DNA of 46,890 nucleotides from assembly GCA_043826435.1 (NCBI GenBank), contig JBDRQF010000017.1, positions 1 through 46,890 on the forward strand, in the 5' to 3' direction. The notes under the pieces were generated by a model. It had not been told where the DNA came from. It saw only the letters and a program-made list of their open reading frames with translations, and ran no database searches. This DNA is from Elusimicrobiota bacterium (GTDB lineage: Bacteria; Elusimicrobiota; Endomicrobiia; CG1-02-37-114; JAHJSO01). This document shows, piece by piece, positions 15,775-41,550 of the stretch (the first letter of the stretch is position 1; each line of letters starts with the position of its first letter). A program made the translations under genes and the position numbers.

Positions 15775-15803
15775 ATTTTAGCAAATCGGGTTTCAAATGT
15801 CAA
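15775..15803 (-). promoter_or_regulatory. Sigma70-type promoter for the hflC operon, TTGACA (15803..15798) - 17 nt - TAAAAT (15780..15775). The -35 hexamer sits inside a REP-like repeat copy.
   Basis: Consensus hexamers at exact spacing, about 80 nt upstream of the hflC start. Confidence 0.5.
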
Positions 15804-15830
15804 GTCCTGACCCATTGATAACCCCATGAC
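15791..15830 (-). repeat. REP-like dispersed repeat, copy A (plus-strand core caaatgtcaagtcctgaccc, then a cccattgata/accccatgac tail).
   Basis: Member of the family GGGGTCAGGTCTTG(A)CAT(CAT)TTGACA seen at least 10 times in the window. Confidence 0.7.
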
Positions 15831-15850
15831 TCGGGGACAGGACTGTTTGC

Positions 15851-15890
15851 CAAATGATGCAAGACCTGCCCATAACGTGGCACCATAACC
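15851..15890 (-). repeat. REP-like dispersed repeat, copy B (caaatgatgcaagacctgccc variant).
   Basis: Same family in the ATGATGCAAG variant. It lies between the nucleotidyltransferase stop and the hflC promoter. Confidence 0.65.
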
Positions 15891-15905
15891 CGCTGCCCCC
15901 ATAAC

Positions 15906-17111
15906 CTAACCGCTCCGCTGCCACTGCTTCGCATTGACCAGACATTCCTTCAGCAACAGAAGAAACAATCCCCTGTCTATTTTCCTGATTCCGTCAACCT
16001 CTCCTATAATGACGTTCGGCGATAACACCAGCGAGTAATAATTGGAAGCCGTTTCCAGGTGCAAGGAGTTAGCCACACATTCAAATGCACTGCGGGTAAC
16101 GAGGAAAGGCGGCGGCCCGAAAAAGGCGGGCTCTCTCTTTCTGCGGTCCTTTACAACCCCAATCACCCCTCTGATTTCTGCGGGCGTAATGCCGTCTTTC
16201 AGGACTACATAAGTGTATTCGCGGGAGTGTGATTGTATGACCGACAGAATGAGACCGTCTGAATTATTTATAGTATCTTCCATTTCTTTCCAGTTTTGGT
16301 TGCTTCTAATTTTAAATCCTTCATCATATCCGATAAAAATTTCTTTTGACAGCCGTTTCGCATAATTATCAAGGAGGAGTATCGCGGAAACATAAGCCCT
16401 TTCATGACCCCCGGAAGCCGTAACGTCTCCGGAAACTGCAACATCCCCTCCAGCCGCCACTTCCACACCAGCCTCAACGTCCCCGCCAGCCGCGACGTCC
16501 CCGCCGTTAATAAAACCGCCTGCTGTTTTGGACATATCCGCAAACGCCTTTTTATATATGTGGCTTTCCCTTCTACTATTTTTCAATCCATCAAGCCAAA
16601 AAAAACGAACTATATAATGATACGATTTTAACATCTCATTAAAAACATCCATTTTATGTTTTCTCTCATTTAAGACATACTCGGGGACATTTAACTTACT
16701 GCCGTATAAAATTTTCCAGTTATTTTTTATTTCCAGCGCCCTGATGTCGCCATGCATGGCATAGTCATTAAGTTCTCCCGCGGTTGACACCTGGACCTCC
16801 CCGAGGAACGGCAAATATCTTTTCCAGAAATTATACTTCTTCCAAAAACTTTTAAGGAAGTTCTTCTCTGCATCGGGCTCCATTTCGTCAATCAGCACAA
16901 ACAAATCAATGTCGCTGTAACCAGGTGCCCACTTGCCGGACACCATGCTCCTCCTTGAACATATCGCTTTGATTTCTTTGTATCTTTTTATCCGGGAGAC
17001 AACCAGATTAAGCCCCGCAACATAAACGGCTTCGTATGCCTTCCTGAAAGCAGGCACCCCGTTTGTGCCTAAAACAAAACCCTCAATTATTCTTTTTAAT
17101 ATCCGGCTCAT
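15906..17111 (-). CDS. Nucleotidyltransferase-fold domain protein with an internal Gly/Ala/Asp/Val low-complexity insert.
   Basis: GYSDIDLFVLID resembles the Pol-beta/MNT-type GS-x-DxD nucleotidyltransferase motif. Start trimmed to ATG 17111 (MSRILK), which overlaps the upstream radical SAM stop as ATGA. The longer ORF would overlap that gene by 118 nt. Confidence 0.55.
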   Translation of the reverse strand: MSRILKRIIEGFVLGTNGVPAFRKAYEAVYVAGLNLVVSRIKRYKEIKAICSRRSMVSGKWAPGYSDIDLFVLIDEMEPDAEKNFLKSFWKKYNFWKRYLPFLGEVQVSTAGELNDYAMHGDIRALEIKNNWKILYGSKLNVPEYVLNERKHKMDVFNEMLKSYHYIVRFFWLDGLKNSRRESHIYKKAFADMSKTAGGFINGGDVAAGGDVEAGVEVAAGGDVAVSGDVTASGGHERAYVSAILLLDNYAKRLSKEIFIGYDEGFKIRSNQNWKEMEDTINNSDGLILSVIQSHSREYTYVVLKDGITPAEIRGVIGVVKDRRKREPAFFGPPPFLVTRSAFECVANSLHLETASNYYSLVLSPNVIIGEVDGIRKIDRGLFLLLLKECLVNAKQWQRSG

Positions 17112-18139
17112 TTTTTGCCGACGACGGCGCTGTTCAGCATATACCCTGCGGCGCAACACAGCCAGCAATGACATTCCCTCTTCCCGAAGAACTCTCTTAA
17201 TTTGTCCGCCTTTTCTGAAAACCACAGGTCATCAAATTTTTCCTTTTTGATATTGCCGATTGTCTTATCCTTGTGGACGGGGCACATATAAAGGCCGCCG
17301 TACGGGTCAACCATCGCAAATTTCTCGCCGCAGGGGCAATCTTGAAAATATCTTTTGGGCTGTTTAACATATTTAAGCAAATAATGCCACGGCAAAAGCG
17401 GGTAAATATCCCCTGTTTCTCCATAAATCGCCTGCATAATCTTCCGGACCTGTTTATCCACTGTTCTTAATTTGTCTTCCGTCCATAACATTCTTTTTAT
17501 ATCCCTTTTTTGAACAAAAACCTGAAATCCCATATTCCATTTTTGTTCTTTTGCCTTTTGATAGACCGGCAAAATCTGATCGTAATTCCCCGGCGACAGA
17601 GTGAAGGTAAAGGTTATATGGACAGGGAATGTTTTCTTTATCGTGTTAACGGTATTTAATAAACGCTCATACGCCCCTCTTTTACCCCTTATTCTGTCAT
17701 GTCCTGTGCCAATGCCGTCAAGCGATGTCCCAAGTAAAATTTTGCCGACGGGGACTTCCGTAAATATCTCCCCGAGTTTTTTTAATATGATACTTTTATT
17801 CATCAGGTTGCTTAAAATGATAATTTCTGCATCCGGGGATGCCTTTGAAAAGAACCTGCATATTTCAACGAAATCATCCCTTAGCCACGGTTCTCCCCCC
17901 GAAAGGATTACCCTTTTTACGTTTTTCAGGTATCTTGACTCCCGGACGAATCTTTTAATTTCCGTAAATTTAATCTCGTCTTTTTTGTCTTTTTTCTTCC
18001 ACAACTCGCACATCACGCACCTTGAATCGCACCTGTATGTCACTTCTAAGTGTAATTCTTCCGGGGGTGATTTCCGAAGCGGCCCCCTGGGAATATTCTT
18101 TTCAAGTAACGAACAGAGAGCGTCCAGCATTTTTTTCAT
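17108..18139 (-). CDS. Radical SAM enzyme with a C-terminal SPASM-type auxiliary Fe-S domain.
   Basis: CDSRCVMC CxxxCxxC cluster near the N-terminus. Cys-rich C-terminus: CPCGEKFAMVDPYGGLYMCP and CHCWLCCAAGY. Confidence 0.8.
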   Translation of the reverse strand: MKKMLDALCSLLEKNIPRGPLRKSPPEELHLEVTYRCDSRCVMCELWKKKDKKDEIKFTEIKRFVRESRYLKNVKRVILSGGEPWLRDDFVEICRFFSKASPDAEIIILSNLMNKSIILKKLGEIFTEVPVGKILLGTSLDGIGTGHDRIRGKRGAYERLLNTVNTIKKTFPVHITFTFTLSPGNYDQILPVYQKAKEQKWNMGFQVFVQKRDIKRMLWTEDKLRTVDKQVRKIMQAIYGETGDIYPLLPWHYLLKYVKQPKRYFQDCPCGEKFAMVDPYGGLYMCPVHKDKTIGNIKKEKFDDLWFSEKADKLREFFGKRECHCWLCCAAGYMLNSAVVGKK

Positions 18140-18147
18140 GTGATGAT

Positions 18148-19077
18148 TTAGTCCCGTGCTTCCGATCTCAATCCGGAGATATCATTCCTGTTATTTTCAA
18201 AGGTATTGTCTATTATTTCGGATTTAGCGTTGTTTATACAGGCGATCGCCCCTTCATTGTCGGAAAATTTATTGGATTCAATAACATTCCTACTGTTATC
18301 GCGGCAGAAAACACCCAATTTATTTTCTGTTATTCTGTTGGATATTATTTTTGTAACCGCATTATGGCAACATTCAATGCCTATTATCTTGTTCCGGGAG
18401 ACATCGCAATTTTTAACTTCCAGCAGGCAGTTCTCATTGGTCCGTATTCCACGGTCATTGCCATTAATAAAACTTCTATCAACTTTAACTTCCAACTTAC
18501 CGCAACACTCTATCCCGACTTTATTTGACTCTATCTCGGCGGACATTAAAACAAGAACACTTTCGCCTGCCGTAAAGACACCGGTTTCGTTGTGCCGTAT
18601 TGTGTCTTTGACAGACGACAGGCGCGACCCGGAATGCAAACTTAACCCGTATATGGTATTATTATTTATTTCATTGCCGGAAAGGTTTATGGACGCGGCG
18701 TCCTCGGCTGCAATCCCGGCTTTATTATTTATAATCTTGCTGTTCTGTATTTCAAGACGGGATTTCCCCCGGCAGTTTACCGCCACCATTTTACTGTGTT
18801 TTATTTCGCAATGTCTTAATATAGAGACCTTATCGCCGGAAAATTCCATTCCCCCCCGCCATGACTTATTGCCGATTATAATTTCCCTGTGTTTTTCACC
18901 AATGGCAACCAGTGTACCTTTAACAATTATGTCACATCTTTCAGGAGACAGGAAAAATATCCATGTTCCCGGCAGGACAGTTACGGTTACATTCTCCCGT
19001 ATGACCAGGGAACCCGATATATAAACCTCCCCCGACCATGTCTCGTTTTGTTTAAGTTCGCCCTTGATAGTTTTCAT
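18148..19077 (-). CDS. Right-handed parallel beta-helix repeat protein (pectate-lyase/NosD-like fold).
   Basis: Regular N-rich repeats of about 22 aa (NNKAGIAAEDAASINLSGNEINNN; NKVGIECCGKLEVKVDRSFINGN; NKIIGIECCHNAVTKIISN). No signal peptide. Confidence 0.6.
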   Translation of the reverse strand: MKTIKGELKQNETWSGEVYISGSLVIRENVTVTVLPGTWIFFLSPERCDIIVKGTLVAIGEKHREIIIGNKSWRGGMEFSGDKVSILRHCEIKHSKMVAVNCRGKSRLEIQNSKIINNKAGIAAEDAASINLSGNEINNNTIYGLSLHSGSRLSSVKDTIRHNETGVFTAGESVLVLMSAEIESNKVGIECCGKLEVKVDRSFINGNDRGIRTNENCLLEVKNCDVSRNKIIGIECCHNAVTKIISNRITENKLGVFCRDNSRNVIESNKFSDNEGAIACINNAKSEIIDNTFENNRNDISGLRSEARD

Positions 19078-19110
19078 ACACGAAAACCCCGCTCTGGAGC
19101 CGGTTTTGTG

Positions 19111-30186: not shown

Positions 30187-30477
30187 TCATTTTGCGCCTC
30201 CTGTAACAATTTTGACAATTTTTTCCCTACTTAAATTCTTAATAAATTCAAGGGTATCACTATTCGCCTTCTTCTGCGTAACGTTGTATTTCCCGGCAAT
30301 AAATTTCGTTACTTGCTGTAGGTTTTTGTCCGCCATAAATAAATTCCATATCTCCGTCCCCGTTTCATCAAGGGAATAATACCAACCCGTCTTCTGGTCT
30401 AAAATCACCGTTTCCTTGTTAACCGTTCTCCAGACAATTCCATCCTGCGATTCAACTCGAATCATTTCTTCCTTCAT
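30187..30477 (-). CDS. Stand-alone PqqD-family small protein (peptide-chaperone/RRE-like).
   Basis: 96 aa. WRTVNKETVILDQKTGWYYSLDETGTEIWNLF...VTKFIAGKYNV...DTLEFIKNL fits the PqqD/RRE fold. Confidence 0.65.
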   Translation of the reverse strand: MKEEMIRVESQDGIVWRTVNKETVILDQKTGWYYSLDETGTEIWNLFMADKNLQQVTKFIAGKYNVTQKKANSDTLEFIKNLSREKIVKIVTGGAK

Positions 30478-30565
30478 TATCGTCCCCTTCCCCCCTTCCG
30501 GTAACCCTCATGGTGTTCCGGGCGTTGAGCCCCGGCCGCACATTGGTGACAGCAGGATATTTTCC

Positions 30566-30597
30566 CCGGAGCACCTGAAGTGCTCCCGTGTTTTTTT
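30566..30597 (+). terminator. Rho-independent-terminator-like hairpin (GGAGCAC-ctgaa-GTGCTCC followed by T7), on the plus strand opposite the operon.
   Basis: A 7-bp perfect GC-rich stem plus a T-run. No plus-strand gene lies upstream, so it may stop antisense transcription or act as an RNA structure within the minus-strand mRNA. Confidence 0.3.
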
Positions 30598-30949
30598 AAT
30601 TGACTTCAATATAGTCCTTTTTAATGAATCCCTTATACCAATTCTCATATTCTTCGGGCGTAACCAAATGGATCTCAAAAGGAGCGCCCGGAAACTTTTC
30701 TTTTATTTTGACTTTGAGTTCTGCCTGCCCGAATAAGTCCCCCGGAATTTCAGGGGAGATAATTAAAATGTCAATATCGCTGCCGGGGCGATATTCCTGC
30801 CGGACTGCCGAGCCGAATACCATGACCTTTTCATCTGTAAAAAAATTTCCGACTATTCTTTTAATTTCTCTTGCATGGAACATATAATTTTGAAAATAGT
30901 ATTCGGACTTTTGATTTTCTTCGGTTAATATTTTATATAAACTTTTCAT
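30596..30949 (-). CDS. Minimal nucleotidyltransferase (MNT/Pol-beta superfamily).
   Basis: VFGSAVRQEYRPGSDIDILI is the GS-x(9-13)-DxD motif. 117 aa. Overlaps the HEPN gene by 17 nt. Confidence 0.75.
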   Translation of the reverse strand: MKSLYKILTEENQKSEYYFQNYMFHAREIKRIVGNFFTDEKVMVFGSAVRQEYRPGSDIDILIISPEIPGDLFGQAELKVKIKEKFPGAPFEIHLVTPEEYENWYKGFIKKDYIEVN

Positions 30950-31334
30950 TTATTCCTTTCTCTAAAAATTTGAAAACACTTTCAGCAAATTCTATAATTT
31001 TTTGAATCTCTTCTTTATTAAATTCTCTCGGAAAATATCTGCTCGTAATATATGCATCTTCCAAACCTCTGAATTGCAAAGAATGTTCCCGGTAAAATTC
31101 AAGAATATTTTTTGACTCATAAACCTCTGCTAACTCATTAAATAGTTTGTCCAAATAATGTGTTTTGGGAAAATCACCCGCTTTTAAAAAGATTAGATAC
31201 TTTATCCATAACTGAACCGCCTGTTCAATATCTAATGCAGATAAATTATATCTTGCTTTTTGAAAATCTTCCCCTGCCCTTTCCCAGAATTCTTTTGCTC
31301 TTTTCTTTAGAAATTCAGTGTTCTCTTGTATCAT
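30933..31334 (-). CDS. HEPN-domain protein, partner of the MNT.
   Basis: 133 aa, all-helical pattern, and a Rx4-6H-like region (RYFPREFNKEEIQKI) near the C-terminus. Tightly coupled to the MNT gene. Confidence 0.6.
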   Translation of the reverse strand: MIQENTEFLKKRAKEFWERAGEDFQKARYNLSALDIEQAVQLWIKYLIFLKAGDFPKTHYLDKLFNELAEVYESKNILEFYREHSLQFRGLEDAYITSRYFPREFNKEEIQKIIEFAESVFKFLEKGINEKFI

Positions 31335-32483
31335 TTATTCTCCGTCCATATTTTTTCTCAAAAAATCCACCATAACGCGGGCATTGCTGGCGCTGTCCGT
31401 TCCCAATGTAAACCTGTAGCAGCGTGACATAGCGATTACCTTCAAAAACACCCGCAACCTTGAGACGGCAATCCTGAACTTGGCAAATAAGTCCTTTATT
31501 CCCGTCCGCAAAAAATATTCCACCATCTGCGGCAAACCCAGTCCGAGGACACCGTTTGTTATAAATGGAAGAATAGCGCTCGTTGGACAAATCTTTGTAA
31601 TTCTTGGATTATCTGCCGCTTCTCTCTCCCCGATTAAAATAATAGCAGGTTCGGTTCTGTCGGATGCAGCGGATGCGCCTCTGCCTGAGATTTTATCTCC
31701 GAAATACTCCAAATCAATCAGGATCTTATGACCGTGCTTCCTACGAGAGAAATTATACAAATATTTTTCGGGAATGTCAAGGAGCGTGTCGGGTGGTGCC
31801 CCCTTCCTTACGCCTATCCTTATTGGAAAAGGCAAAATTTCTCCCTTTTTTGACACAAGTGGTGTGTCGTCTGCAAGAAGTTTGACCCCGTTATGTTTCA
31901 GTAATTCCAGGGCGAGGGTGGTCTTTCCCGCCCCCTGTGGAAGCACCAATAAAACCCCTTTACCATAAAACGAAATCCCCATGGCATGCAAACGATGTAT
32001 TCCTCTTTTATCCAACAATTCACCTGACCTGGAAAGAATCAAAAGATAAACCAGTTCATGCATCAGGTCACTGTTTTGTGTATAGACCCTGCCGGTTTCT
32101 TCCTTATAGTCATATATCGTCAGTGCTTCACCGTGATAGTCAACATATCTCTTGTTTTCAAAATCATAAGAAATTGAATCGGGGTTGTACAGCGATGCCC
32201 TGACTGCAGGTATTTGACTGAAATCCGGCGTTGTTAAAAAACTATGGATTTTTATTGCAGGGACGGGGGTTGTGGGACTCGCCGTGGTTTCATGGGTTGC
32301 CGGGGCTCCGGGAGTTGCGGGGGCGGGCTCGGGGGCGAGTGCAGGATTTTCCGTTATATCCGGTACCGTTATATCCGAGACGAAGTAAGCAAAATCCCGG
32401 GCTAAAAGTTCGGCGATATCGCTGTCGTCCGACTCTAAATATACCTTTACTCCATAGAAGTTGAAATGTTTGGAACTCTTCAT
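31335..32483 (-). CDS. HPr-kinase-related serine kinase (HprK C-terminal-domain-like).
   Basis: HAMGISFYGKGVLLVLPQGAGKTTLALELLKHNGVKLLADDTPLV matches the HprK P-loop region (GxxGxGKS/T...ADD). The N-terminal domain is joined by a Pro/Ala/Thr-rich linker. Confidence 0.7.
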   Translation of the reverse strand: MKSSKHFNFYGVKVYLESDDSDIAELLARDFAYFVSDITVPDITENPALAPEPAPATPGAPATHETTASPTTPVPAIKIHSFLTTPDFSQIPAVRASLYNPDSISYDFENKRYVDYHGEALTIYDYKEETGRVYTQNSDLMHELVYLLILSRSGELLDKRGIHRLHAMGISFYGKGVLLVLPQGAGKTTLALELLKHNGVKLLADDTPLVSKKGEILPFPIRIGVRKGAPPDTLLDIPEKYLYNFSRRKHGHKILIDLEYFGDKISGRGASAASDRTEPAIILIGEREAADNPRITKICPTSAILPFITNGVLGLGLPQMVEYFLRTGIKDLFAKFRIAVSRLRVFLKVIAMSRCYRFTLGTDSASNARVMVDFLRKNMDGE

Positions 32484-32764: not shown

Positions 32765-33796
32765 TTATTTAACCAGGCCTCTCAAAAAACCCAGTCCGTA
32801 GGAAACATGTCCGACCGGGAACAATAAAAAGAGACACGGAAATATCCTGATATCTCTGTACTGGACGGCGGTTAAAAATGAAAAGAACACATTCAGGACA
32901 AAGTAAGAAAACAACGGAAAAAGATAAATCTGACTGCGGGAAAAGATAAGTGAAATTAAATAAACTATAAATAAACTTGGGAGAATAAAATACGGGGAGA
33001 ACGAGCGTGGCACACGCCGCGTCATCTGCCCCCTGCCGCAACCGTACTTAAAAAACTGTTTCGCAAACCCGGTTAGCGTTGCCCGTCGCCTGTGATAAAC
33101 AACCAAATCGGGGGTGTGTAACATTGCGTATCCCCTTGAGGCGAGCGTAACCATAAGAAGATTCTCTTCATTGCAGACAAGTTTTTCATCAAACACAACC
33201 TTTTCATTCACAAAAAGTTTCCTGCGGATAGCCAGGTTACACAAGATCAATGATTTGTCGTCAGCCGGGCGGTCTCCGCCTGAAGACACATACCTGCGTC
33301 TCACATTTGCGCTGCCGAATGGCGAAACGAGGAGGTGCCCGGAACACTTCTGTAAAAGATTGCCCGCCGGCGGGGTTAAATTCGGCCCGCCTATTATATC
33401 CGTATCCACATACCTGCCGAACTTCTCCCTGCATATCCCGATTATGTCCCTGTCAACGATTATATCGTCATCAAGAAAATATATAATTTCACCGGAGGTG
33501 TGTTTCAGCGCCTCGTTCCTTGCCCCGCCGTTGGACATTCTCTCAATGGGAATGAGCCGTAAATTGGGATTCAAAAGGGACGCCTGTTCCAAATAGGTAT
33601 GGCTTGCATGGTCGTCGCCGTTGACTATGACCACCATCTCCCATTCATCATTTTGTGGAGTGGGATCTGGGGTCAGGTCTTGACATTTGACATGTGGGGT
33701 GTGTGCGTAAATACTTTCAAGGCATTCCTTAAGATGCCCCAGCCTTTTGTATGTGATAATTACTGCACTAATAATAATAGGGTCAGGTCTTGACAT
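32765..33796 (-). CDS. GT2 glycosyltransferase whose start codon and an internal in-frame segment are supplied by REP-like repeat copies.
   Basis: IISAVIITYKRLGHLKECLESIYAHT, then EMVVIVNGDD, are the GT2 N-terminal strands. The roughly 14 codons between them (PHVKCQDLTPDPTPQNDEW) are encoded by REP copy C. The first codons MSRPDP come from REP copy D1. Confidence 0.65.
   Translation of the reverse strand: MSRPDPIIISAVIITYKRLGHLKECLESIYAHTPHVKCQDLTPDPTPQNDEWEMVVIVNGDDHASHTYLEQASLLNPNLRLIPIERMSNGGARNEALKHTSGEIIYFLDDDIIVDRDIIGICREKFGRYVDTDIIGGPNLTPPAGNLLQKCSGHLLVSPFGSANVRRRYVSSGGDRPADDKSLILCNLAIRRKLFVNEKVVFDEKLVCNEENLLMVTLASRGYAMLHTPDLVVYHRRRATLTGFAKQFFKYGCGRGQMTRRVPRSFSPYFILPSLFIVYLISLIFSRSQIYLFPLFSYFVLNVFFSFLTAVQYRDIRIFPCLFLLFPVGHVSYGLGFLRGLVK
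33668..33705 (+). repeat. REP-like repeat, copy C (ggggtcaggtcttgacatttgaca), inserted in-frame within the GT2 coding sequence.
   Basis: Core 33669-33692. Confidence 0.7.
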
Positions 33797-33885
33797 TTGT
33801 TAAAAACCTCGTCCACCGTTATTTAATAGTGGGGTCAGGTCTTGCATCATTTGACACTATTAAAAACCTCGTCCGCCGTTATCAA
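33779..33885 (+). repeat. Tandem duplication (two units of about 52 bp) of the REP-like repeat plus the adjacent ttaaaaacctcgtccRccgttat segment, copies D1 and D2.
   Basis: Cores at 33780-33799 and 33831-33856. D2 carries the TGA stop of the heptosyltransferase gene. D1 carries the ATG of the GT2 gene. Confidence 0.7.
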
Positions 33886-34839: not shown

Positions 34840-34854
34840 TTTTCAGGATACCCG

Positions 34855-36477
34855 CTAACCGTTGCCTTTTAATACCAATAATCTATAACAGGGGGCACCT
34901 ACACGGTTATGAAACATTCTCTCTTCAATAATCCTTTTTTTGAATACCTCTTTTATTTTCTCGTAACACTGCAATCTTTGGCTTGCGGGGGATAAATTCT
35001 TACTATAGGCGATGAAATACATTTTTCCCTGTTCAGTGGACAGGTGTTTTATTTCTTCACCAAAATCTGATTTACCAATGTAATCGTAAATCAGTTCAAC
35101 GGGTAAAACCCTCCAGTTCGTGATTACTGGCACCGTCCATGATAGTCCCCAGTCAAGTGAATAGGGCCGCCTGATTTCGTTTTTTTCTAAATAGTCGGTC
35201 AAATCATAAATTACTGTTGAAAATACACCATGACCGCCGGTCTTCCCGTATGCCCTGAAATACTGGAAGATTACTGCTGTGTCCAAAGAAATTAGTGCTG
35301 CAAGAAAAACAATTCTTGTAACCTTTTGCCACCTGGATTTTTCCAGGGAATAACCTGCAAACACCGCGACGATAACCTGGGGAACGGGGAATAGAATTCC
35401 GAGCGAGTGTTGTCCGAGCGTTGATATCGTAAAGCAGAGACCGACGAACACAACTGAAAATATAATAAAAAGAAAAATTATTGGTTTCCTGGGTACGACG
35501 GGTACGACCGCCCTTTTTTTAATTAGATAAATTATCCCGAAAACCACTGCCAGGAAAAAAATGGGCGGATAGAGTTCGTTAAAACTAAACGTGTGTGCAA
35601 GCCCCGAGTCCGACATCTCCCAGTAAATAAAACCCCTTAAACAATCAATAAACTGCCGGGCTCTGACAAGAAAATTGTTTATGAAATCCGGGTTTTTGAC
35701 CCCCGCCCAGGTGGGGGCGGTTAAACTGCCCAGTACCAGCCGCACCGTCTGGAAGCCAGAGGTCAGGTTCGCCCATATCAGCGGTGAAGCGCCGAGAACA
35801 AATGAACCGGTGAACTCAACTGATTCCGTTCTGCTGAATCTTATCTTAAACAAAAACTTTATAATAAAAAGGCCGAGTATAAACCAGATAAACGGTATTT
35901 TGGTCCACAAGCCAATGCCCAACAGGAAGGCGCCGCCGTATAGAAAGAATGGACTCCTTTTTTTGACATACAGAGTAAAAAGGTAAAGGGCGAGTAAAAA
36001 AACAACCACCATATACATCTGGCGGGCATCAAGCGGATTCCTGTTCCACATAAGATACGCCGGGCTGACTGCCGTAAGAAGGGATGCAATAAAGGCGGTC
36101 TTCCTGTTAAACCAGTATTCGCAGAGTAAGTACAAAAGAAAAATGCCGAGCAATCCGACGATTATCGTGCTGAGCCGCATAGACAGGACGCCGGGGCCAA
36201 GCGTCAGCAACAGCGGGACATGAAAATACGCGGGCGAGGCGTAATGTCCCTGCATAATTGGAATCTTCTGATTGAACAGGGTGATGTGGGATTCCCCCTC
36301 CCACACATTGTTTTCCTTCAATGCATTCCAGAACCAGTATTGGTTTAACGCCTCGTCGGGATGCACCCCGGGAACCGGGATATTGTATAACGAAAATCCC
36401 AGGAAAATGGCAGAAATTAAAACAACGGGGATATATTTTTGTATGCCTGGATTCGTGCCGGGATTCGGAGTCATTGT
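34855..36477 (-). CDS. GT39/ArnT-PMT-like polytopic membrane glycosyltransferase.
   Basis: Multi-transmembrane protein with an N-terminal DE-containing loop (HPDEALNQYWFW) and a C-terminal soluble domain. Start trimmed to ATG 36477 (MTPNPG) because the first 12 codons of the longer ORF (MMQNLTHDP) are encoded by REP copy E. Confidence 0.65.
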   Translation of the reverse strand, partial: TMTPNPGTNPGIQKYIPVVLISAIFLGFSLYNIPVPGVHPDEALNQYWFWNALKENNVWEGESHITLFNQKIPIMQGHYASPAYFHVPLLLTLGPGVLSMRLSTIIVGLLGIFLLYLLCEYWFNRKTAFIASLLTAVSPAYLMWNRNPLDARQMYMVVVFLLALYLFTLYVKKRSPFFLYGGAFLLGIGLWTKIPFIWFILGLFIIKFLFKIRFSRTESVEFTGSFVLGASPLIWANLTSGFQTVRLVLGSLTAPTWAGVKNPDFINNFLVRARQFIDCLRGFIYWEMSDSGLAHTFSFNELYPPIFFLAVVFGIIYLIKKRAVVPVVPRKPIIFLFIIFSVVFVGLCFTISTLGQHSLGILFPVPQVIVAVFAGYSLEKSRWQKVTRIVFLAALISLDTAVIFQYFRAYGKTGGHGVFSTVIYDLTDYLEKNEIRRPYSLDWGLSWTVPVITNWRVLPVELIYDYIGKSDFGEEIKHLSTEQGKMYFIAYSKNLSPASQRLQCYEKIKEVFKKRIIEERMFHNRVGAPCYRLLVLKGNG

Positions 36478-36494
36478 GCCACCTTTGGGATCAT

Positions 36495-36519
36495 GGGTCA
36501 GGTTTTGCATCATTTGACA
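36495..36519 (+). repeat. REP-like repeat, copy E (gggtcaggttttgcatcatttgaca).
   Basis: Sits at the 5' end of the GT39-like gene. Confidence 0.65.
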
Positions 36520-36552
36520 AACGGGCGGGCATTAAGATTGTTTTGGCTTACA

Positions 36553-38520: not shown

Positions 38521-38630
38521 TGTTTTTTAACCTCCTTACTTGCAGAAAATTGAGATAGGCGGAACTTTATTGTTTCTTCTTTACGCCTCCTTTAAAGTTC
38601 AAATTGCCTATCAGGGGGGGCACGAGTCAT

Positions 38631-38654
38631 GGGGTCAGGTCTTGACATTTGACA
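38631..38654 (+). repeat. REP-like repeat, copy F (ggggtcaggtcttgacatttgaca), immediately 3' of the transposase gene. It is inverted relative to copy G on the other side.
   Basis: Exact consensus copy. Confidence 0.7.
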
Positions 38655-38655
38655 T

Positions 38656-39606
38656 TCATATCTTTGACTCGATTCTTTTCAGTATATTGCTTAATCGTCG
38701 GTCAATTTTACATTTTTCTTCCAACCTCTTCACAATCTTGGTTATACTTGAATAGTGAAGTCCACCAAAAATATCCGAAAGTATCTTTAATCTCATGTCG
38801 GTGTATTTTCTTAAAAAATATATCGCCATTTTTCGCGGTCCACCTTTATTCTTGAATATTTTATCCATAGAAATTCCATAATGATTACTCACCAGAGTAA
38901 GAATTTCTTCTTTTGATTTTCTCTCCTTAAGTTTTCTACACAAAGGGATTTCCCGGTCTATTTTAACCTTTGAAATCCTTTGTTTTATTTCCTGGGTAAA
39001 TTCTTTCGTGCCGACTATGAGTTGCCCGTATATCTTTTCCCTAATCTTATCCCAAGTAATCCCCCTACCTTCCATGCAAAATTGTTTATACATTCGTTGG
39101 GCCTTTTGCTTTTCAGCAGAAAATCTGCTCAATATCCAATCAGTATTTACCACTTCACCAGCCCTCATACCGAGATAGTCACGAGAACTGCTCATTCGGT
39201 AATTCTCAACTTTGTGCACTAAACCCGCACGCAAAGGATTCAGGTGGATATACCGCGTTAGTTCCAGAAGATAATTTTCCCTGTCAACAATTAATGCTCT
39301 ATACCTACCTTGAAACAAATGACCTACACGGGCATACTTACGATTGAAATAAATCGTATAAAGTGTCTGGATAAAGTGCATCGCTCTGGTTAAATTCGCT
39401 CCCCGGGTTTCAACCAATAAATGGTAGTGATTCGGCATAAAAACATAAGCGTAGAAAATCAACTGATATCGCTCTTTTACCTGACACAATATTTCAAACA
39501 ACTTACGGTAATCACTTTTTTCTCTAAATATTTGCCTCCGTTCGTTACCTCGCGCCGTAACATGATATACTGCCCCGGCAAACTCTAATCTAAGCGGTCT
39601 CGCCAT
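38656..39606 (-). CDS. REP-associated tyrosine transposase-like protein: IS200-like Y1 HUH domain plus a C-terminal DnaA-C-like helix-turn-helix domain.
   Basis: YHVTARGN, the HUH motif MPNHYHLLVE and the catalytic-Tyr region ENYRMSS. The C-terminal 90 aa (AIYFLRKYTDMRLKILSDIFGGLHYSSITKIVKRLEE) resemble the DnaA C-terminal DNA-binding domain. Flanked by inverted REP-like copies F and G. Confidence 0.7.
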   Translation of the reverse strand: MARPLRLEFAGAVYHVTARGNERRQIFREKSDYRKLFEILCQVKERYQLIFYAYVFMPNHYHLLVETRGANLTRAMHFIQTLYTIYFNRKYARVGHLFQGRYRALIVDRENYLLELTRYIHLNPLRAGLVHKVENYRMSSSRDYLGMRAGEVVNTDWILSRFSAEKQKAQRMYKQFCMEGRGITWDKIREKIYGQLIVGTKEFTQEIKQRISKVKIDREIPLCRKLKERKSKEEILTLVSNHYGISMDKIFKNKGGPRKMAIYFLRKYTDMRLKILSDIFGGLHYSSITKIVKRLEEKCKIDRRLSNILKRIESKI

Positions 39607-39690
39607 CTCAATTAAATCTTATCTAATTGTTTGTGAAATGTCAAGCACTATGACTTTTATGTTTGGCTTTTACTAATGCTACTAAAAATT

Positions 39691-39738
39691 TGTCAAATGT
39701 CAAGACCTGACCCCATTGACCTGACCCCATTGACCTAG
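39691..39738 (-). repeat. REP-like repeat, copy G (tgtcaaatgtcaagacctgacccc plus a duplicated attgacctgaccccattgacc tail).
   Basis: Lies between the transposase start and the radical SAM gene stop. Confidence 0.7.
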
Positions 39739-41337
39739 TCATCGGGATACTTCGCATGCCCATTCGTTATAAAGTTTTTTTATTTTGACCTTATCGTCAA
39801 ACAATGAATAGAGATAAAAAAGCACGGATTCTGTTTCATACGACCAGAAGCCGCCCCGCGTCTGTGTTATTACTCTCGTGCAGGATGAAGCAATCTGTTT
39901 CATTTTTTCTTCCCACTTAAGCCCGTCAATCTCGTCAAATGCAAAATTGAACGGATAGTTGTCAACCAGTTCCCGCGTTTTCAGCGAAGCGTATTTATGA
40001 ATCGGCTTGACATTCGTTATGCCGTATCTCCCCGGAAATTTGGACATCAAACTGCTTCCGTCTAAAAAATACGGGTTAAAAAAAACAGTATCAATATGGC
40101 TTTCATTACGAAGCAGAAAATCAATAGTCAGGCGTATATCCTCTTCTTTCTCACCCGGCAGTCCCGCAATTATTTCCAGCCCGTTCCAGATCCCTATATC
40201 ATCGGCGATTTTTAACATCTCCTCCGCTTTCTGAACCGTTATGCCTTTATTGATATATCTCAGCAACCTCGGACTGCCCGTTTCAAGTCCCCATATAAGG
40301 CGGACAGCCCCTGCCCGCCTCATTTTTTCTAATATACCCTTATCAAGATATGTAAAGTTGGCGCAGTCAGTCCAGTAAAGTTTCAGTCCTCTTCTTATGA
40401 TTTCGTCGCAGAACGCATTGATAAACTCCCTGGAGAAATTGGCGGTAGAATGCAAAAAGAAAAAATAGTTCGTCCTGTATTTTTCAGACAGGGATTGGAT
40501 ATAATCCACCGCCCGGGTGGCTTCAAGACAAACCAGATTTTTTTCTTTCGCCGACTCGCAACAGAAGGCGCACCTGAAAGGGCACCCGATAATATGCCTG
40601 AACGGCAGTATGAGAATGTCTCTTTTTTCAAGATTGTGTTTTTTTGTAAAAAAATCGTCTCTCCAGATATATTTGTCCAGCGGTATGCCGTCAAAGTCGG
40701 GGCAGGGCAGAACAATGGGAGTTGTATTCGGGTTTGAATACATAACACCATCTTTTAAGTAGGATAACCCCGGGATATTGTCAACGTCCCTGCCTGACTC
40801 AACCGCCCTTATGAAACATTCCGACAACACTTCCCCGTGCTCGCTACCGAGATAATCAATTATCCCTTCCCGCATACCAATTTCCAGTTCGGCACCGCTC
40901 CCGCCCCCTGCGATAATTTTACAACCGGTTTTTTCTTTTAATATTTTTGCTATTACCAGTGTTGATAACAACGGGCTAATATCTATCAGGGAAGGGATGG
41001 AAAGCAAGATTAAATCAAAACTATCAACGTTGCTCTTTTTTAATATATTTTCCCCGACATTCTCCAATTCAGAATCCCTGCTGCCATTTATGAAATTCAT
41101 AACCCTTTCCTTATCATGAAAAATTTTACCGTCCACCCTTCCGGAATAATCTGTATTGTAAACATTGTCATAATGCACTTTCACGTTCAGGTCGTCCTGT
41201 TCAATGCCAATACCTTTACCTCTCAAATAGGAAGTAATGACCGCGGGAGCAAGCGGAGGAAAGTTTTCGCACTTCATTTTCTGATTACTCTGTTTAATAT
41301 ATGAATAGTGCGGAACTCTCAGTAATTTAATTTTCAT
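39739..41337 (-). CDS. B12-binding-domain radical SAM enzyme (class B).
   Basis: N-terminal Rossmann-like B12-binding region. CPFRCAFC CxxxCxxC cluster. About 530 aa. Confidence 0.75.
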   Translation of the reverse strand: MKIKLLRVPHYSYIKQSNQKMKCENFPPLAPAVITSYLRGKGIGIEQDDLNVKVHYDNVYNTDYSGRVDGKIFHDKERVMNFINGSRDSELENVGENILKKSNVDSFDLILLSIPSLIDISPLLSTLVIAKILKEKTGCKIIAGGGSGAELEIGMREGIIDYLGSEHGEVLSECFIRAVESGRDVDNIPGLSYLKDGVMYSNPNTTPIVLPCPDFDGIPLDKYIWRDDFFTKKHNLEKRDILILPFRHIIGCPFRCAFCCESAKEKNLVCLEATRAVDYIQSLSEKYRTNYFFFLHSTANFSREFINAFCDEIIRRGLKLYWTDCANFTYLDKGILEKMRRAGAVRLIWGLETGSPRLLRYINKGITVQKAEEMLKIADDIGIWNGLEIIAGLPGEKEEDIRLTIDFLLRNESHIDTVFFNPYFLDGSSLMSKFPGRYGITNVKPIHKYASLKTRELVDNYPFNFAFDEIDGLKWEEKMKQIASSCTRVITQTRGGFWSYETESVLFYLYSLFDDKVKIKKLYNEWACEVSR

Positions 41338-41384
41338 TTTTTTTCGCCACCGATTCTCCGCCTGCTATGCCCTCTGCTGTTATT

Positions 41385-41428
41385 TGTCAAATGATGCAAG
41401 ACCTGACCCCATTCAGACCCCATTCAGG
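41385..41428 (-). repeat. REP-like repeat, copy H (tgtcaaatgatgcaagacctgacccc plus tail attcagaccccattcagg).
   Basis: Same orientation as copy I, about 85 bp away. Confidence 0.7.
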
Positions 41429-41470
41429 CATTGGCGTCCTTCTCTCGCCTTGCGCCTCCACCGTCGGAAA

Positions 41471-41550
41471 TGTCAAATGTCAAGACCTGACCCCATATCT
41501 CCACACTGACCCCATATCTCATATCTGTGACCCCGTCACCCACAGGGAGA
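41471..41550 (-). repeat. REP-like repeat, copy I (tgtcaaatgtcaagacctgacccc plus a three-times repeated gaccccat tail).
   Basis: Consensus core with a longer degenerate tail. Confidence 0.7.

What the first reader, a model, noticed from the sequence alone, without database searches (positions are those of the whole stretch)
15791..41550. Dispersed REP-like repeat family at gene boundaries, with an associated tyrosine transposase flanked by inverted copies
The motif GGGGTCAGGTCTTGACATTTGACA and its ATGATGCAAG variants occurs at least ten times. The copies are at 15794, 15851, 33669, 33780, 33831, 36495, 38631, 39691, 41385 and 41471, in both orientations. Each copy sits within a few bases of a start or stop codon. 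Several carry a short tandemly duplicated gaccccat-type tail. The only transposase-like gene in the window (38656-39606) is an IS200-like Y1 HUH protein with an added DnaA-C-like HTH. It is flanked by two copies in inverted orientation (38631-38654 and 39691-39714), the arrangement expected for a REP-associated tyrosine transposase (RAYT) and its cognate REP/REPIN. The motif is not a strong palindrome, unlike classical proteobacterial REPs, so it would be an atypical family.
Basis: seen in the sequence. Interest (0 to 1): 0.65.

Follow-up and report, generated by a model that had tools for sequence, protein, structure and literature searches.

The report
Tyrosine-transposase element with scattered end-repeats
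The repeat is real: it is the 24-26-base terminal inverted repeat of a small mobile element that encodes a RAYT-like tyrosine transposase fused to a DnaA-type DNA-binding domain. Eight further loose copies of that end lie between, and in one case inside, neighbouring genes, and this kind of element was described in 2013 as a TIRYT or "TIRtron" but has never been studied biochemically.

Summary
**Observation: confirmed.** Ten copies of GGGGTCAGGTCTTGACATTTGACA, or of its TTGCATCATTTGACA variant, lie between 15.8 and 41.5 kb; shuffled sequence gives none. A family-wide weight matrix finds no further copy in the window.

**The element.** Gene 38656-39606 (-) encodes a Y1 HUH protein with a C-terminal DnaA domain-IV fold.
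- It passes NCBIfam's REP-associated tyrosine transposase model.
- Its model is closest in fold to E. coli TnpA_REP (4ER8), ahead of the IS200/IS608 transposases.
- It is flanked by a perfect 26-nt inverted repeat, giving a 1,088-bp unit.

**Interpretation: partly supported.**
- The repeat is not a REP. Single copies do not fold, and there is no GTAG tag.
- It fits the TIRYT/"TIRtron" class (Di Nocera 2013; TnpA_REP subclass 2.1.2 of Quentin 2018), whose ends share GGGGWSAS.

**Wider picture.**
- In 54 related elements the column-by-column consensus of the end equals the window's 24-mer.
- The exact 24-mer occurs 168 times in 38 species genomes whose titles name about ten phyla. It mostly forms MITE-like inverted doublets without target-site duplication.
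- It also flanks transposases that are only 26-45% identical to one another.

**In the window.**
- One copy is an in-frame insertion in a glycosyltransferase gene.
- Other copies supply a start codon, a stop codon or a promoter-like -35 box.

**Verdict.** This is a new member of a known, uncharacterised kind, of moderate interest.

The parts
38629..38654 (+). Downstream (3') terminal inverted repeat of the element. On the gene strand it reads TGTCAAATGTCAAGACCTGACCCCAT. It starts 1 nt after the transposase stop codon.
   Evidence: I5: 26 nt, 100% complementary to 39691-39716.
38656..39606 (-). TIRYT gene, 316 aa: an N-terminal Y1 HUH domain (H60-Y61-H62, catalytic Y119 in RYIHLNP) and a C-terminal DnaA domain-IV-like HTH (about residues 230-316).
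   Evidence: Pfam Y1_Tnp 3.8e-14 and Bac_DnaA_C 4.5e-9. NCBIfam REP_Tyr_transpos 83.3 bits against a cut-off of 80. Invariant residues across 24 homologues. AlphaFold model with pLDDT 81.5. Best folds 4ER8 and DnaA domain IV 1J1V.
39607..39690 (-). 5' leader inside the element. It holds two promoter-like sites (TTGACA-17-TAAGAT at 39644..39616 and TTGACA-16-TAGCAT at 39703..39676). It also holds an internal partial copy of the inner repeat block (tgtgaaatgtcaag, 39632-39645).
   Evidence: These are consensus matches only; the count over the whole region is not above that of shuffles.
39691..39716 (-). Upstream (5') terminal inverted repeat of the element. On the gene strand it reads ATGGGGTCAGGTCTTGACATTTGACA.
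   Evidence: I5.
39704..39736 (.). Tandem duplication of the repeat tip plus flank (GACCTGACCCCATT, 2.4 copies).
   Evidence: A second tip is also scored by the tip weight matrix at 39717-39728.
41471..41494 (-). Solo copy, exact 24-mer (type A), in the gap between the spermine-synthase/MFS/TPR gene and the radical SAM gene. It is followed by further GACCCCAT tip fragments up to about 41540.
41385..41410 (-). Solo copy, 26-nt variant (type B, TTGCATCATTTGACA), 48 nt upstream of the radical SAM start codon. An 11-nt tip duplication lies at 41405-41427.
36494..36519 (+). Solo copy, type B with 2 mismatches. It contains the ATG (36513) from which the PMT_2 ORF 34855-36513 is called.
33831..33856 (+). 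Solo copy, type B, identical to 41385-41410. The stop codon of the GT9 gene (33847-33849) lies inside it.
   Evidence: I4.
33779..33802 (+). Solo copy, type A with 3 mismatches. It supplies the ATG (33796) and the first residues (MSRPDP) of the GT2 ORF.
   Evidence: the GT2 domain starts at residue 10 of this ORF.
33669..33692 (+). Solo copy, exact 24-mer, inside the GT2 coding sequence. Together with its tail it encodes an in-frame 15-residue insertion (VKCQDLTPDPTPQND).
   Evidence: a 15-residue gap in a paralogue at exactly this place; gaps in two other GT2 proteins at the same place.
15791..15814 (-). Degenerate solo copy, type A with 3 mismatches. Its TTGACA is the -35 of a near-consensus promoter-like site (TTGACA-17-TAAAAT with TG, 15803..15775) upstream of the Band_7 gene 14633-15718.
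   Evidence: 1 site found against 0.1 expected in shuffles.
15849..15872 (-). Most degenerate copy, type B-like (ccaaatgatgcaagacctgccc), followed by repeated cccataac fragments.
   Evidence: I9, I15.

Best explanation
**What it is**
- Window 38629-39716 is a 1,088-bp 'TIRtron'. This is an IS-like unit made of one gene for a RAYT-like Y1 HUH tyrosine transposase, fused to a DnaA domain-IV-type helix-turn-helix (a TIRYT; TnpA_REP subclass 2.1.2), and bounded by perfect 26-nt terminal inverted repeats.
- The other eight copies are solo ends of the same repeat family, in two sub-types that differ only in the central block. They are scattered in the short gaps of an Elusimicrobiota glycosylation gene cluster, and one of them lies inside a gene.

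**Shown here**
- The protein architecture and fold.
- The exact inverted flanking.
- That the same kind of end flanks homologous genes throughout a very large family.
- That pairs of ends with short spacers are dispersed as identical units within other genomes.
- That these pairs carry no target-site duplication.

**Inferred mechanism**
- The end is bipartite. Two blocks are conserved across the family: an almost invariant outer tip, GGGGTCA, and an inner TTGACA block. The centre between them is variable.
- I propose that the C-terminal HTH binds the inner block on duplex DNA and so places the HUH/Tyr active site at the tip.
- There one strand is cut and joined through a 5'-phosphotyrosine, as in TnpA_REP and IS200/IS605 TnpA.
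- On a single strand, for example the lagging-strand template, the two inverted ends can pair and bring both tips together. This would explain why doublets and gene-carrying units move as wholes and leave no target duplication.
- Solo ends are most likely remnants or abortive products that can no longer move. The tandemly duplicated tips could come from slippage at the GGTCA/GGTC sub-repeat or from repeated cleavage and rejoining.

**Side effects on the host**
- Because the end carries ATG, TGA and TTGACA, inserted copies have become start codons, stop codons, an in-frame peptide insertion and at least one promoter-like -35 box for host genes.
For: **Repeat and flanking**
-.

**Protein**
- Y1_Tnp plus Bac_DnaA_C.
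- REP_Tyr_transpos above its cut-off.
- HUH and Tyr are invariant in 24 homologues.
- The family profile hits DnaA domain IV (1e-11) and TnpA_REP 4ER8 (0.009), and no IS200-type TnpA.
- The model's best fold matches are 4ER8 (E 3e-7, TM 0.74) and DnaA domain IV (TM 0.82, rmsd 1.7).

**Family**
- More than 7,400 homologues at E <= 1e-10, nearly all with the same two domains. Many sit on contigs of 1.0-1.4 kb, about the size of the element.
- In 54 related loci the gene is flanked by inverted repeats whose column consensus is exactly the window's 24-mer. G2, G4, T5, C6 and T12 are invariant.
- The two arms of one element are 92% identical, against 67% between elements.
- Closely related proteins (more than 60% identical) mostly have ends 83-100% identical.

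**Dispersal**
- 168 exact 24-mers in 38 species genomes, up to 41 in one genome.
- 51 close inverted doublets with spacers of 1-115 nt. The same doublet sits at 7 sites with different flanks in one genome.
- No target-site duplication: a 3-nt duplication in 1 of 58 pairs, against 0.9 expected.
- The inverted repeat stops at GGGG in 35 of 58 pairs.

**Not a conserved feature of this gene cluster**
- The three nearest radical-SAM clusters found (50-54% identity), two of them with the same radical SAM ... GT9-GT2 order, have no TIRYT gene and no copy of the motif.

**Literature**
- TIRYT/TIRtron with GGGGWSAS ends (PMC3733652).
- Subclass 2.1.2 with Bac_DnaA_C (PMC6006769).

**A cultured example**
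- A Legionella adelaidensis plasmid homologue (35.6% identity) has ends of the same type.
Against: - No activity has been shown for any TIRYT. Cleavage at the tip, HTH binding to the inner block and the single-strand route are all inferences.
- No insertion or excision polymorphism was seen. The four other assemblies that carry this gene are the same sequence at 99.6-100% identity, with no difference at any repeat copy.
- Across the whole family, the correlation between protein divergence and end divergence is weak (Spearman 0.15; 89 of 2,000 permutations reach it).
- The five elements with the exact 24-mer have proteins only 26-45% identical to each other. The end is therefore not private to one protein lineage, as a strict cognate model would predict.
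- In the window none of the eight loose copies forms a close inverted doublet, unlike about 60% of the copies in other genomes. Tip duplications are much commoner here than elsewhere (6 of 168 flanks, against 2.2 expected).
- The inner block does not resemble a DnaA box, as PMC6006769 already noted.
- The genome-wide copy number in this organism is unknown.
Confidence: 0.78

Rival explanations
1. It is a classical REP/REPIN-RAYT system. A domesticated single-copy RAYT would maintain a population of extragenic palindromic repeats that it recognises as hairpins.
For: - The protein passes NCBIfam's REP-associated tyrosine transposase model.
- It is closest in fold to E. coli TnpA_REP.
- The gene is flanked by inverted copies.
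- In other genomes the repeat mostly occurs as inverted doublets with a spacer, which is formally the REPIN layout.
Against: - A single copy is not a palindrome. Folding energies are within those of shuffles (z = -1.2, -0.8 and 0.05), and the only 4-bp stem is destroyed in the type B variant.
- There is no GTAG or CGTC tag.
- The protein has an extra C-terminal HTH that E. coli TnpA_REP (165 residues in PDB 4ER8) has no room for.
- Copy numbers are tens rather than hundreds: at most 41 exact copies per genome.
- The same end occurs across about ten phyla, whereas each REP family is tied to its own RAYT gene (PMC6006769).
- Quentin et al. found no REP-like sequences next to subclass 2.1 genes.
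Confidence: 0.1
2. The motif is a host regulatory element of the glycosylation cluster, either an operator for a transcription factor or a promoter module (TTGACA-T-TTGACA). The transposase-like gene would be the regulator that binds it through its HTH.
For: - The motif contains two -35-like hexamers.
- The copy at 15791 forms a near-consensus promoter-like site upstream of the Band_7 gene.
- The upstream end of the element has promoter-like sites reading into the gene.
- The copies lie in intergenic gaps of one co-directional gene cluster.
Against: - The identical 24-mer occurs in 38 other species genomes next to unrelated genes, mostly as doublets.
- Half of the copies face away from the genes, with TTGACA on the non-coding strand.
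- One copy is inside a coding sequence.
- Related gene clusters lack it.
- The HUH and Tyr catalytic residues are invariant across the family, which a pure repressor would not need.
- No promoter-like site was found at 41300-41620.
Confidence: 0.05
3. The outer copies form a larger composite mobile unit. The type B pair (33830-33856 and 41385-41411) and the type A pair (33664-33693 and 41470-41499) are nested inverted repeats around 7.5-7.8 kb. That segment holds the TIRYT element together with GT9, PMT_2, methyltransferase and radical SAM genes as cargo.
For: - The B pair is 27 nt and 100% complementary. The A pair is 30 nt and 97% complementary (I4 and I3).
- Their order is symmetric (A, B ... 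B, A), with the tips facing outwards as in the small element.
- In the IS200/IS605 Y1 elements it is the two ends that the transposase recognises, so in principle whatever lies between two correctly oriented ends could move (background knowledge).
Against: - The A copy at 33669 lies inside the GT2 gene, and the GT2 start is in another copy, so the A boundary cuts a gene.
- In relatives the order radical SAM ... GT9-GT2 is kept without any such repeat. Genes inside and outside the supposed unit are therefore old neighbours.
- No second copy or empty site of the 7.5-kb segment was found.
- All confirmed units in the family are about 1.0-1.2 kb.
Confidence: 0.04
4. It is an ordinary IS200/IS605-family insertion sequence, and the repeats are unrelated.
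For: - The Pfam Y1_Tnp (IS200-like) domain matches.
- IS200, IS608 and ISDra2 transposases are significant fold matches.
Against: - No IS200 model of NCBIfam is listed at E <= 0.001.
- Among HUH transposases the family profile finds only TnpA_REP in the PDB.
- The best fold match is TnpA_REP.
- The ends are long terminal inverted repeats rather than different subterminal hairpins.
- There is no tnpB gene.
- The flanking repeats are exactly the dispersed motif.
Confidence: 0.03

Closest known systems
TIRYT / 'TIRtron' (TIR-associated tyrosine transposase; Di Nocera, De Gregorio & Rocco 2013, BMC Genomics 14:522, PMC3733652)
   Same: - A RAYT-like Y1 gene flanked by terminal inverted repeats instead of REPs.
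- The ends begin with a motif that fits GGGGWSAS (here GGGGTCAG).
- The gene's 3' end abuts or overlaps the downstream repeat.
- The repeats also occur elsewhere as singles, dimers or groups, in moderate numbers.
   Different: - That paper listed 26 examples from complete genomes and noted only the shared 8-nt motif.
- Here the whole 24-nt end equals the consensus of 54 elements and recurs unchanged in 38 species genomes.
- The window's loose copies are solo or in direct clusters rather than dimers.
- The host phylum (Elusimicrobiota) was not identified among the species named in the passages of that paper read here.
TnpA_REP subclass 2.1.2 (Quentin, Siguier, Chandler & Fichant 2018, BMC Genomics 19:475, PMC6006769)
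   Same: - A long TnpA_REP-like protein whose C-terminal extension matches Pfam Bac_DnaA_C.
- No REP-like hairpins next to the gene.
- The authors proposed that this subclass probably corresponds to the TIRYTs.
   Different: - Placement in their tree was not tested here. The assignment rests on domain architecture and on the type of end.
E. coli TnpA_REP / RAYT with REP and BIME sequences (PDB 4ER8; REPIN concept of Bertels & Rainey 2011)
   Same: - The catalytic HUH/Tyr domain is the best structural match (E 3e-7, TM 0.74).
- The gene is bracketed by inverted copies of a dispersed repeat.
- In other genomes there are doublets with a spacer, which would fold into long hairpins.
   Different: - No palindrome within a unit, and no GTAG tag.
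- An extra HTH domain.
- Tens rather than hundreds of copies.
- The same end is shared across phyla instead of being specific to a species.
IS200/IS605 insertion sequences (IS608, ISDra2)
   Same: - The Y1 HUH fold.
- No target-site duplication.
- Probably single-strand chemistry.
   Different: - Those elements have different left and right subterminal hairpins and no terminal inverted repeats.
- Their transposases are about 130-155 residues, without an HTH, and many carry tnpB.
MITEs derived from DDE-transposase insertion sequences
   Same: - Short units of about 50-140 bp made of two terminal inverted repeats and a spacer, dispersed in intergenic DNA, with a full-length element that has the same ends.
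   Different: - No target-site duplication.
- The associated enzyme is an HUH tyrosine transposase rather than a DDE enzyme.

Membership tests
TIRYT / TIRtron (Di Nocera 2013) | Encodes a RAYT-like Y1 protein with an HUH motif and a catalytic tyrosine | tested here: met
   Y1_Tnp 3.8e-14. REP_Tyr_transpos 83.3 bits against 80. H60-Y61-H62 and Y119 are invariant in 24 homologues. Fold match to 4ER8.
TIRYT / TIRtron (Di Nocera 2013) | Gene flanked by terminal inverted repeats that are not REP hairpins | tested here: met
   26-nt arms, 100% complementary, at 38629-38654 and 39691-39716 (I5). Single arms do not fold better than shuffles.
TIRYT / TIRtron (Di Nocera 2013) | The end carries the shared GGGGWSAS motif (true of the main TIR type) | tested here: met
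   The tip is GGGGTCAG. In 54 relatives G2, G4, T5 and C6 are invariant.
TIRYT / TIRtron (Di Nocera 2013) | The ends can form a dispersed repeat family (singles, dimers, groups) | tested here: met
   Eight further copies in the window. 168 exact copies in 38 genomes, 51 of them dimers.
TnpA_REP subclass 2.1.2 (Quentin 2018) | C-terminal extension matching Bac_DnaA_C, HTH_23 or HTH_28 | tested here: met
   Bac_DnaA_C 4.5e-9 at residues 233-293. The profile hits DnaA domain IV at 1e-11. Fold match to 1J1V with TM 0.82 and rmsd 1.7.
TnpA_REP subclass 2.1.2 (Quentin 2018) | Placement within the 2.1.2 clade of their tree | not tested
Classical RAYT / REP (REPIN) system | Protein of the RAYT type rather than the IS200 type | tested here: met
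Classical RAYT / REP (REPIN) system | Each repeat unit is an imperfect palindrome (hairpin) | tested here: not met
   DNA folding of single units gives -2.1, -1.7 and -0.8 kcal/mol, with z = -1.2, -0.8 and 0.05.
Classical RAYT / REP (REPIN) system | A conserved GTAG (or CGTC) tag at one end of the unit | tested here: not met
   The sequence has GGGGTCA at its conserved end.
Classical RAYT / REP (REPIN) system | High copy number (hundreds) with a single, vertically inherited gene | tested here: inconclusive
   Only 46.9 kb of this genome is available. In other genomes there are at most 41 exact copies, and variant copies were not counted.
IS200/IS605 insertion sequences | Distinct subterminal hairpins at the left and right ends, and no terminal inverted repeats | tested here: not met
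   The ends are a perfect inverted repeat without significant internal structure.
IS200/IS605 insertion sequences | Transposase matches IS200-type family models | tested here: not met
   Only the general Pfam Y1_Tnp domain matches. No NCBIfam IS200 model is listed at E <= 0.001. No IS200-type chain is found by the family profile at E <= 1.
DDE-type IS / MITE | Target-site duplication flanking the inverted repeats | tested here: not met
   A 3-nt duplication in 1 of 58 pairs, against 0.9 expected by chance.

The most novel reading that the evidence does not exclude
TIRYT elements may use a mode of HUH transposition not yet described.
- In this reading a DnaA-type HTH anchors the enzyme on duplex DNA at the inner TTGACA block of a bipartite 24-nt end.
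- The Y1 domain then cuts at the invariant GGGGTC tip.
- This protein-DNA code would be so constrained that the identical 24-mer has persisted, or spread, across about ten bacterial phyla while the proteins have diverged to 26-45% identity.
- As a by-product, the ends would act as portable gene-boundary cassettes (ATG, TGA, a -35 box and translatable in-frame inserts) that reshape host genes.
Probability: 0.25. Interest if true: 0.6.

Novelty: new member of a known kind. Interest (0 to 1): 0.38.

Why it matters
TIRYTs are a very large family (more than 7,400 homologues in this search), yet they remain experimentally untouched. They lie between domesticated RAYTs and autonomous IS200-type elements.

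**What this window offers**
- A clean, intact example whose ends equal the family consensus. That gives a concrete 26-nt substrate for the first biochemical tests: binding by the DnaA-like domain and cutting by the Y1 domain.
- A view of what such ends do to host genes: an in-frame insertion in a glycosyltransferase, donated start and stop codons, and a promoter-like -35 box.

**For annotation**
- Recognising the motif prevents false gene starts, false gene ends and spurious 'MSRPDP...' or '...SNVKT' peptides in genomes assembled from metagenomes.
- It also explains contig breaks at these repeats.

The finding does not overturn current understanding.

Tried and rejected
- **Rfam scan of the whole window:** no family at gathering score, so the repeat is not a known RNA element.
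- **Exact 24-mer in viral contigs:** none. Only 31 of 72,556 plasmid records hold a homologue, and only one of these is near full length. No obvious vector for spread between phyla was found.
- **Strain comparison for insertion polymorphism:** the four other assemblies that carry the identical protein are the same DNA (99.6-100%), with no difference at any repeat copy. This was uninformative.
- **Empty-site test through radical SAM homologues:** the closest are only 50-56% identical.
  - Their clusters lack the gene and the motif, and two keep the radical SAM ... GT9-GT2 order.
  - They are too distant to show a clean empty site.
- **Co-divergence of protein and end across 54 elements:** only weak (Spearman 0.15). 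A first attempt was out of register and gave -0.09; it was discarded.
- **Type B variant in the other fetched loci:** found only in contigs of the same strain, so its own transposase, if it has one, was not located.
- **Tip duplication as a general feature:** only 6 of 168 flanks elsewhere, against 2.2 expected, so it is mainly a peculiarity of this locus.
- **Single-sequence PDB search:** missed the HUH domain. The profile and fold searches were needed.
- **Second TIRYT paralogue in Aminicenantes UBA4085 (L088):** I considered that it might share the exact end. It has no exact copy next to it, so that claim was dropped.
- **Spacers of doublets as deletion derivatives:** the spacers are not obviously derived from the inner ends of the full-length element of the same genome.

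Full report
**1.

The 24-mer GGGGTCAGGTCTTGACATTTGACA occurs exactly four times: 33669 (+), 38631 (+), 39691 (-) and 41471 (-). It occurs twice more with three mismatches, at 15791 (-) and 33779 (+). None of 100 shuffles gave a single match.

A 26-nt variant has the centre TTGCATCATTTGACA.
- It occurs at 33831 (+) and 41385 (-), identical to each other, and at 36494 (+) with two mismatches.
- A degenerate variant-like copy lies at about 15849-15872.
- The 13-nt core gives ten hits against 0.86 expected.

A weight matrix built later from 54 related elements finds no further full copy in the 46.9 kb.

The duplicated 'gaccccat' tails are real.
- There is a 14-nt unit in 2.4 copies at 39704-39736.
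- There is an 11-nt unit in 2.1 copies at 41405-41427. Both match at 100%.

The window is a contig of an Elusimicrobiota genome assembled from a metagenome. The same DNA occurs in GCA_018830385.1 and in three other assemblies.

**2. The gene and its ends**

ORF 38656-39606 (-) encodes 316 residues with Pfam Y1_Tnp (residues 13-121) and Bac_DnaA_C (residues 233-293).

Several tests place the Y1 domain with the RAYTs rather than with IS200.
- It reaches NCBIfam's 'REP-associated tyrosine transposase' model (83.3 bits; cut-off 80). No IS200 model is listed.
- In an alignment with 23 homologues of 39-57% identity, the HUH motif (H60-Y61-H62) and the tyrosine of RYIHLNP (Y119) are invariant.
- A profile of that alignment finds DnaA domain IV (1e-11) in the PDB. 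Among HUH transposases it finds only E. coli TnpA_REP, 4ER8 (0.009).
- An AlphaFold model (pLDDT 81.5) matches 4ER8 best (E 3e-7, target TM 0.74). IS200, ISDra2 and IS608 transposases follow at about 1e-4.
- The C-terminal part of the model superposes on DnaA domain IV bound to a DnaA box (1J1V, TM 0.82, rmsd 1.7 A).

That test comes out in favour of a RAYT-type enzyme.

The gene is bracketed by ATGGGGTCAGGTCTTGACATTTGACA at 38629-38654 and its exact reverse complement at 39691-39716 (I5). This makes a 1,088-bp unit. The stop codon lies one base from the downstream arm.

**3. The repeat is not a REP**

- Single units folded as DNA give -2.1, -1.7 and -0.8 kcal/mol, which is within the range of shuffles (z = -1.2, -0.8 and 0.05).
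- The only 4-bp stem is lost in the variant.
- There is no GTAG or CGTC tag.

The literature already has a name for this arrangement.
- Di Nocera et al. (2013, PMC3733652) described RAYT-like genes flanked by terminal inverted repeats. They called them 'TIRtrons' encoding 'TIRYTs'. Many of those ends share GGGGWSAS, and some form moderately abundant families of singles, dimers or groups.
- Quentin et al. (2018, PMC6006769) placed 20 of the 26 TIRYTs in TnpA_REP subclass 2.1. Sub-group 2.1.2 of that subclass carries a Bac_DnaA_C or other HTH extension and has no REP-like sequences nearby.
- The window's tip, GGGGTCAG, fits GGGGWSAS.
- A search of the paper library found no later work that characterises these elements.

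**4. The family at large**

The protein has more than 7,400 homologues at E <= 1e-10, nearly all with both domains. Many sit on contigs of 1.0-1.4 kb, about the size of the element, as is usual for repeats that break assemblies.

I fetched 80 metagenomic loci that encode relatives of 32-45% identity. In most of the loci with enough flanking DNA, the gene is bracketed by an inverted repeat that starts GGGGTCA or GGTGTCA.

For 54 elements put in register:
- The two arms of one element are 92% identical on average. Arms of different elements are 67% identical.
- Positions G2, G4, T5, C6 and T12 are invariant.
- The outer tip (positions 1-7) and an inner TTGACA block (positions 19-24) are conserved, while positions 13-18 vary.
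- The majority base at every position spells exactly the window's 24-mer.
- Pairs of proteins more than 60% identical mostly have ends 83-100% identical. Over the whole set the correlation is weak (Spearman 0.15; 89 of 2,000 permutations reach it).

A homologue on a Legionella adelaidensis plasmid (35.6% identity) has ends of the same type.

**5. Dispersal of the exact 24-mer**

A scan of one genome for each of 185,579 species found 101 stretches of DNA. They hold 168 copies in 38 genomes.
- The record titles name Elusimicrobia, Aminicenantes, Desulfobacterota/Deltaproteobacteria, Geobacteraceae, Bacteriovoracaceae, Planctomycetes, Nitrospirae/Thermodesulfovibrionia, Nitrospinae, Omnitrophota, Peptococcaceae and Clostridia.
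- One genome holds up to 41 copies.
- All are genomes binned from metagenomes, so some assignments may be wrong. Several hits are nevertheless on contigs of 50-380 kb.

The layout of these copies is as follows.
- Fifty-one pairs are close inverted doublets, tips outwards, with spacers of 1-115 nt. Four pairs about 1 kb apart enclose TIRYT genes, and a fifth, 1.1 kb apart, encloses another (L082).
- In one genome (VMTI01) the same 78-bp doublet sits at seven places with different flanks, in both orientations. The doublet therefore spreads as a unit.
- The pairs have no target-site duplication: a 3-nt duplication in 1 of 58, against 0.9 expected. The inverted repeat ends at GGGG in 35 of 58.
- The first base outside the tip is A or T in 147 of 168 copies.
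- The absence of a duplication fits HUH chemistry and argues against a DDE-type MITE.

The five elements bounded by the exact 24-mer encode proteins only 26-45% identical to one another. The DNA end is thus far better conserved than the enzyme.

**6. What the loose copies do in this window**

All genes from 28.7 to 44.4 kb are on the minus strand. Taking the copies in turn:
- **33669.** This copy lies inside the family-2 glycosyltransferase gene 32765-33796. The Pfam domain starts at residue 10 of that ORF. A paralogue aligns with a 15-residue gap exactly at VKCQDLTPDPTPQND, the peptide encoded by the copy and its tail. Two other GT2 proteins show gaps at the same place.
- **33779.** This copy supplies that ORF's ATG and the residues MSRPDP.
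- **33831.** The stop codon of the GT9 gene (33847-33849) lies inside this copy.
- **36494.** The ATG from which the PMT_2 ORF is called lies in this copy.
- **15791.** This copy provides the TTGACA of a promoter-like site, TTGACA-17-TAAAAT with an upstream TG, ahead of the Band_7 gene. One such site was found against 0.1 expected.

Some homologues end in ...SNVKT or ...SRPDP, peptides that correspond to translation of the downstream arm.

The motif is not a conserved feature of this gene cluster. In the nearest radical SAM homologues found (50-56% identity), two of the three clusters examined keep the order radical SAM ... GT9-GT2. All three have neither a TIRYT gene nor the motif.

**7. How it most likely works**

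Shown:
- An intact RAYT-like HUH/Tyr domain fused to a DnaA-type HTH.
- Ends that are terminal inverted repeats with a conserved tip and a conserved inner block.
- Dispersal of end pairs as units, without target duplication.

Inferred:
- The HTH binds the inner block on duplex DNA and positions the catalytic domain at the tip.
- There one strand is cut and rejoined through a phosphotyrosine, as in TnpA_REP and IS200/IS605 TnpA.
- On single-stranded DNA the two arms can pair and bring both tips together.
- Solo ends are remnants or abortive products.
- The duplicated tips could arise by slippage at the GGTCA/GGTC sub-repeat or by repeated cutting and rejoining. They are much commoner here than in other genomes (6 of 168 flanks, against 2.2 expected), and I cannot explain that.
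- Promoter-like sites lie between the upstream arm and the start codon. An internal partial copy of the inner block (39632-39645) overlaps one of them, which would allow autoregulation. This is conjecture.

**8. Rivals**

- **A classical REP/REPIN system** fails on the hairpin and tag criteria.
- **A host regulatory site** fails on its distribution across genomes, on the orientation of half the copies and on the intragenic copy.
- **An ordinary IS200 element** fails on the family models, on the fold ranking and on the structure of the ends.
- **A 7.5-kb composite unit** bounded by the nested A/B pairs (I3 and I4) cannot be excluded but is unlikely. One boundary cuts the GT2 gene, and genes inside and outside the supposed unit are neighbours in relatives that lack the repeat.

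**9. Verdict**

The finding is real and correctly located, and its interpretation points in the right direction. The object belongs to a kind that has already been named (TIRYT/TIRtron; TnpA_REP subclass 2.1.2).

What this analysis adds:
- The window's end is the 24-nt consensus of a very large family.
- That 24-mer recurs unchanged across many phyla while the proteins diverge.
- It forms MITE-like doublets without target duplication.
- Its loose copies have been built into host genes.

No TIRYT has been tested experimentally, so the mechanism remains an inference.

Noticed in passing
window 11818-11857 and 41542-41581: A second, unrelated repeat: the 40-nt GC-rich unit TGTCATTGCGAGGGGCGAAGCCCCGAAGCAATCCCCCTGT, present twice in inverted orientation at 95% identity (I1). 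It folds as a DNA hairpin (ATTGC..GGGGC-GAA-GCCCC..GCAAT), -8.1 kcal/mol, z = -2.2. Unlike the main motif, this is a true palindromic REP-like unit. One copy lies about 45 nt from the repeat copy at 41471. A loose pattern search of the other fetched loci found only one similar sequence (L014).
   Followed up: partly
window 32765-33796 (-), copy at 33669-33692: The GT2 glycosyltransferase gene carries a repeat copy as an in-frame 15-residue insertion (VKCQDLTPDPTPQND) between the first helix and the second strand of the domain. It takes its ATG from another copy at 33779. Whether the protein is still functional is unknown.
   Followed up: partly
window 15775-15803 (-): A near-consensus sigma-70-type promoter-like site, TTGACA-17-TAAAAT with TG. 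Its -35 hexamer belongs to the degenerate repeat copy at 15791-15814. It lies about 57 nt upstream of the Band_7/SPFH gene 14633-15718.
   Followed up: partly
window 33799-33823 and 33857-33881: A local direct repeat, TTAAAAACCTCGTCC(A/G)CCGTTAT, follows two neighbouring repeat copies (33779 and 33831). The 3' end of the GT9 gene plus a repeat copy therefore appears to have been duplicated in tandem, and the duplicate now provides the ribosome-binding region of the GT2 gene (read).
   Followed up: no
window 3-1360, and more degenerate copies to about 5700: Tandem DNA repeats of 357 nt (3-4 copies, 78-94% identical), with further units of about 350 nt downstream (D1-D9). This is probably a very large repeat-domain surface protein that runs off the start of the contig.
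   Followed up: no
window 30187-32483 (-): A HEPN (30933-31334) and nucleotidyltransferase (30596-30949) pair. Next to it are a PqqD-like gene (30187-30477) and an HPr-kinase-C-like gene (31335-32483), within the glycosyltransferase cluster (gene table of L102).
   Followed up: no
window 16416-16505, in ORF 15906-17225 (-): An 18-nt coding tandem repeat (AGCCGCAACGTCCCCGCC, 5 copies, 70% matches) in a 439-residue protein with no Pfam match.
   Followed up: no
window 41589-44423 (-): An unusual 944-residue fusion of an MFS transporter-like N-terminus, a spermine/spermidine synthase domain and C-terminal TPR repeats.
   Followed up: no
L189 (Legionella adelaidensis plasmid NZ_LR134433.1, 351794-353445): A cultured-organism homologue (35.6% identity) annotated only as 'transposase'. 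It is flanked by 26-nt inverted repeats of the same type (GGAGGGTCAGGCCTTGCCTTTTG). It could serve as a tractable model.
   Followed up: partly
L012, L026, L040, L050, L066, L081 (genome VMTI01, 'bacterium isolate 01_128'): A 78-bp doublet with a 30-nt spacer (tagtcaaacgggcRaactttaaatgtatgc) is present at seven sites with different flanks. The spacer occurs in both orientations relative to the neighbouring DNA.
   Followed up: partly
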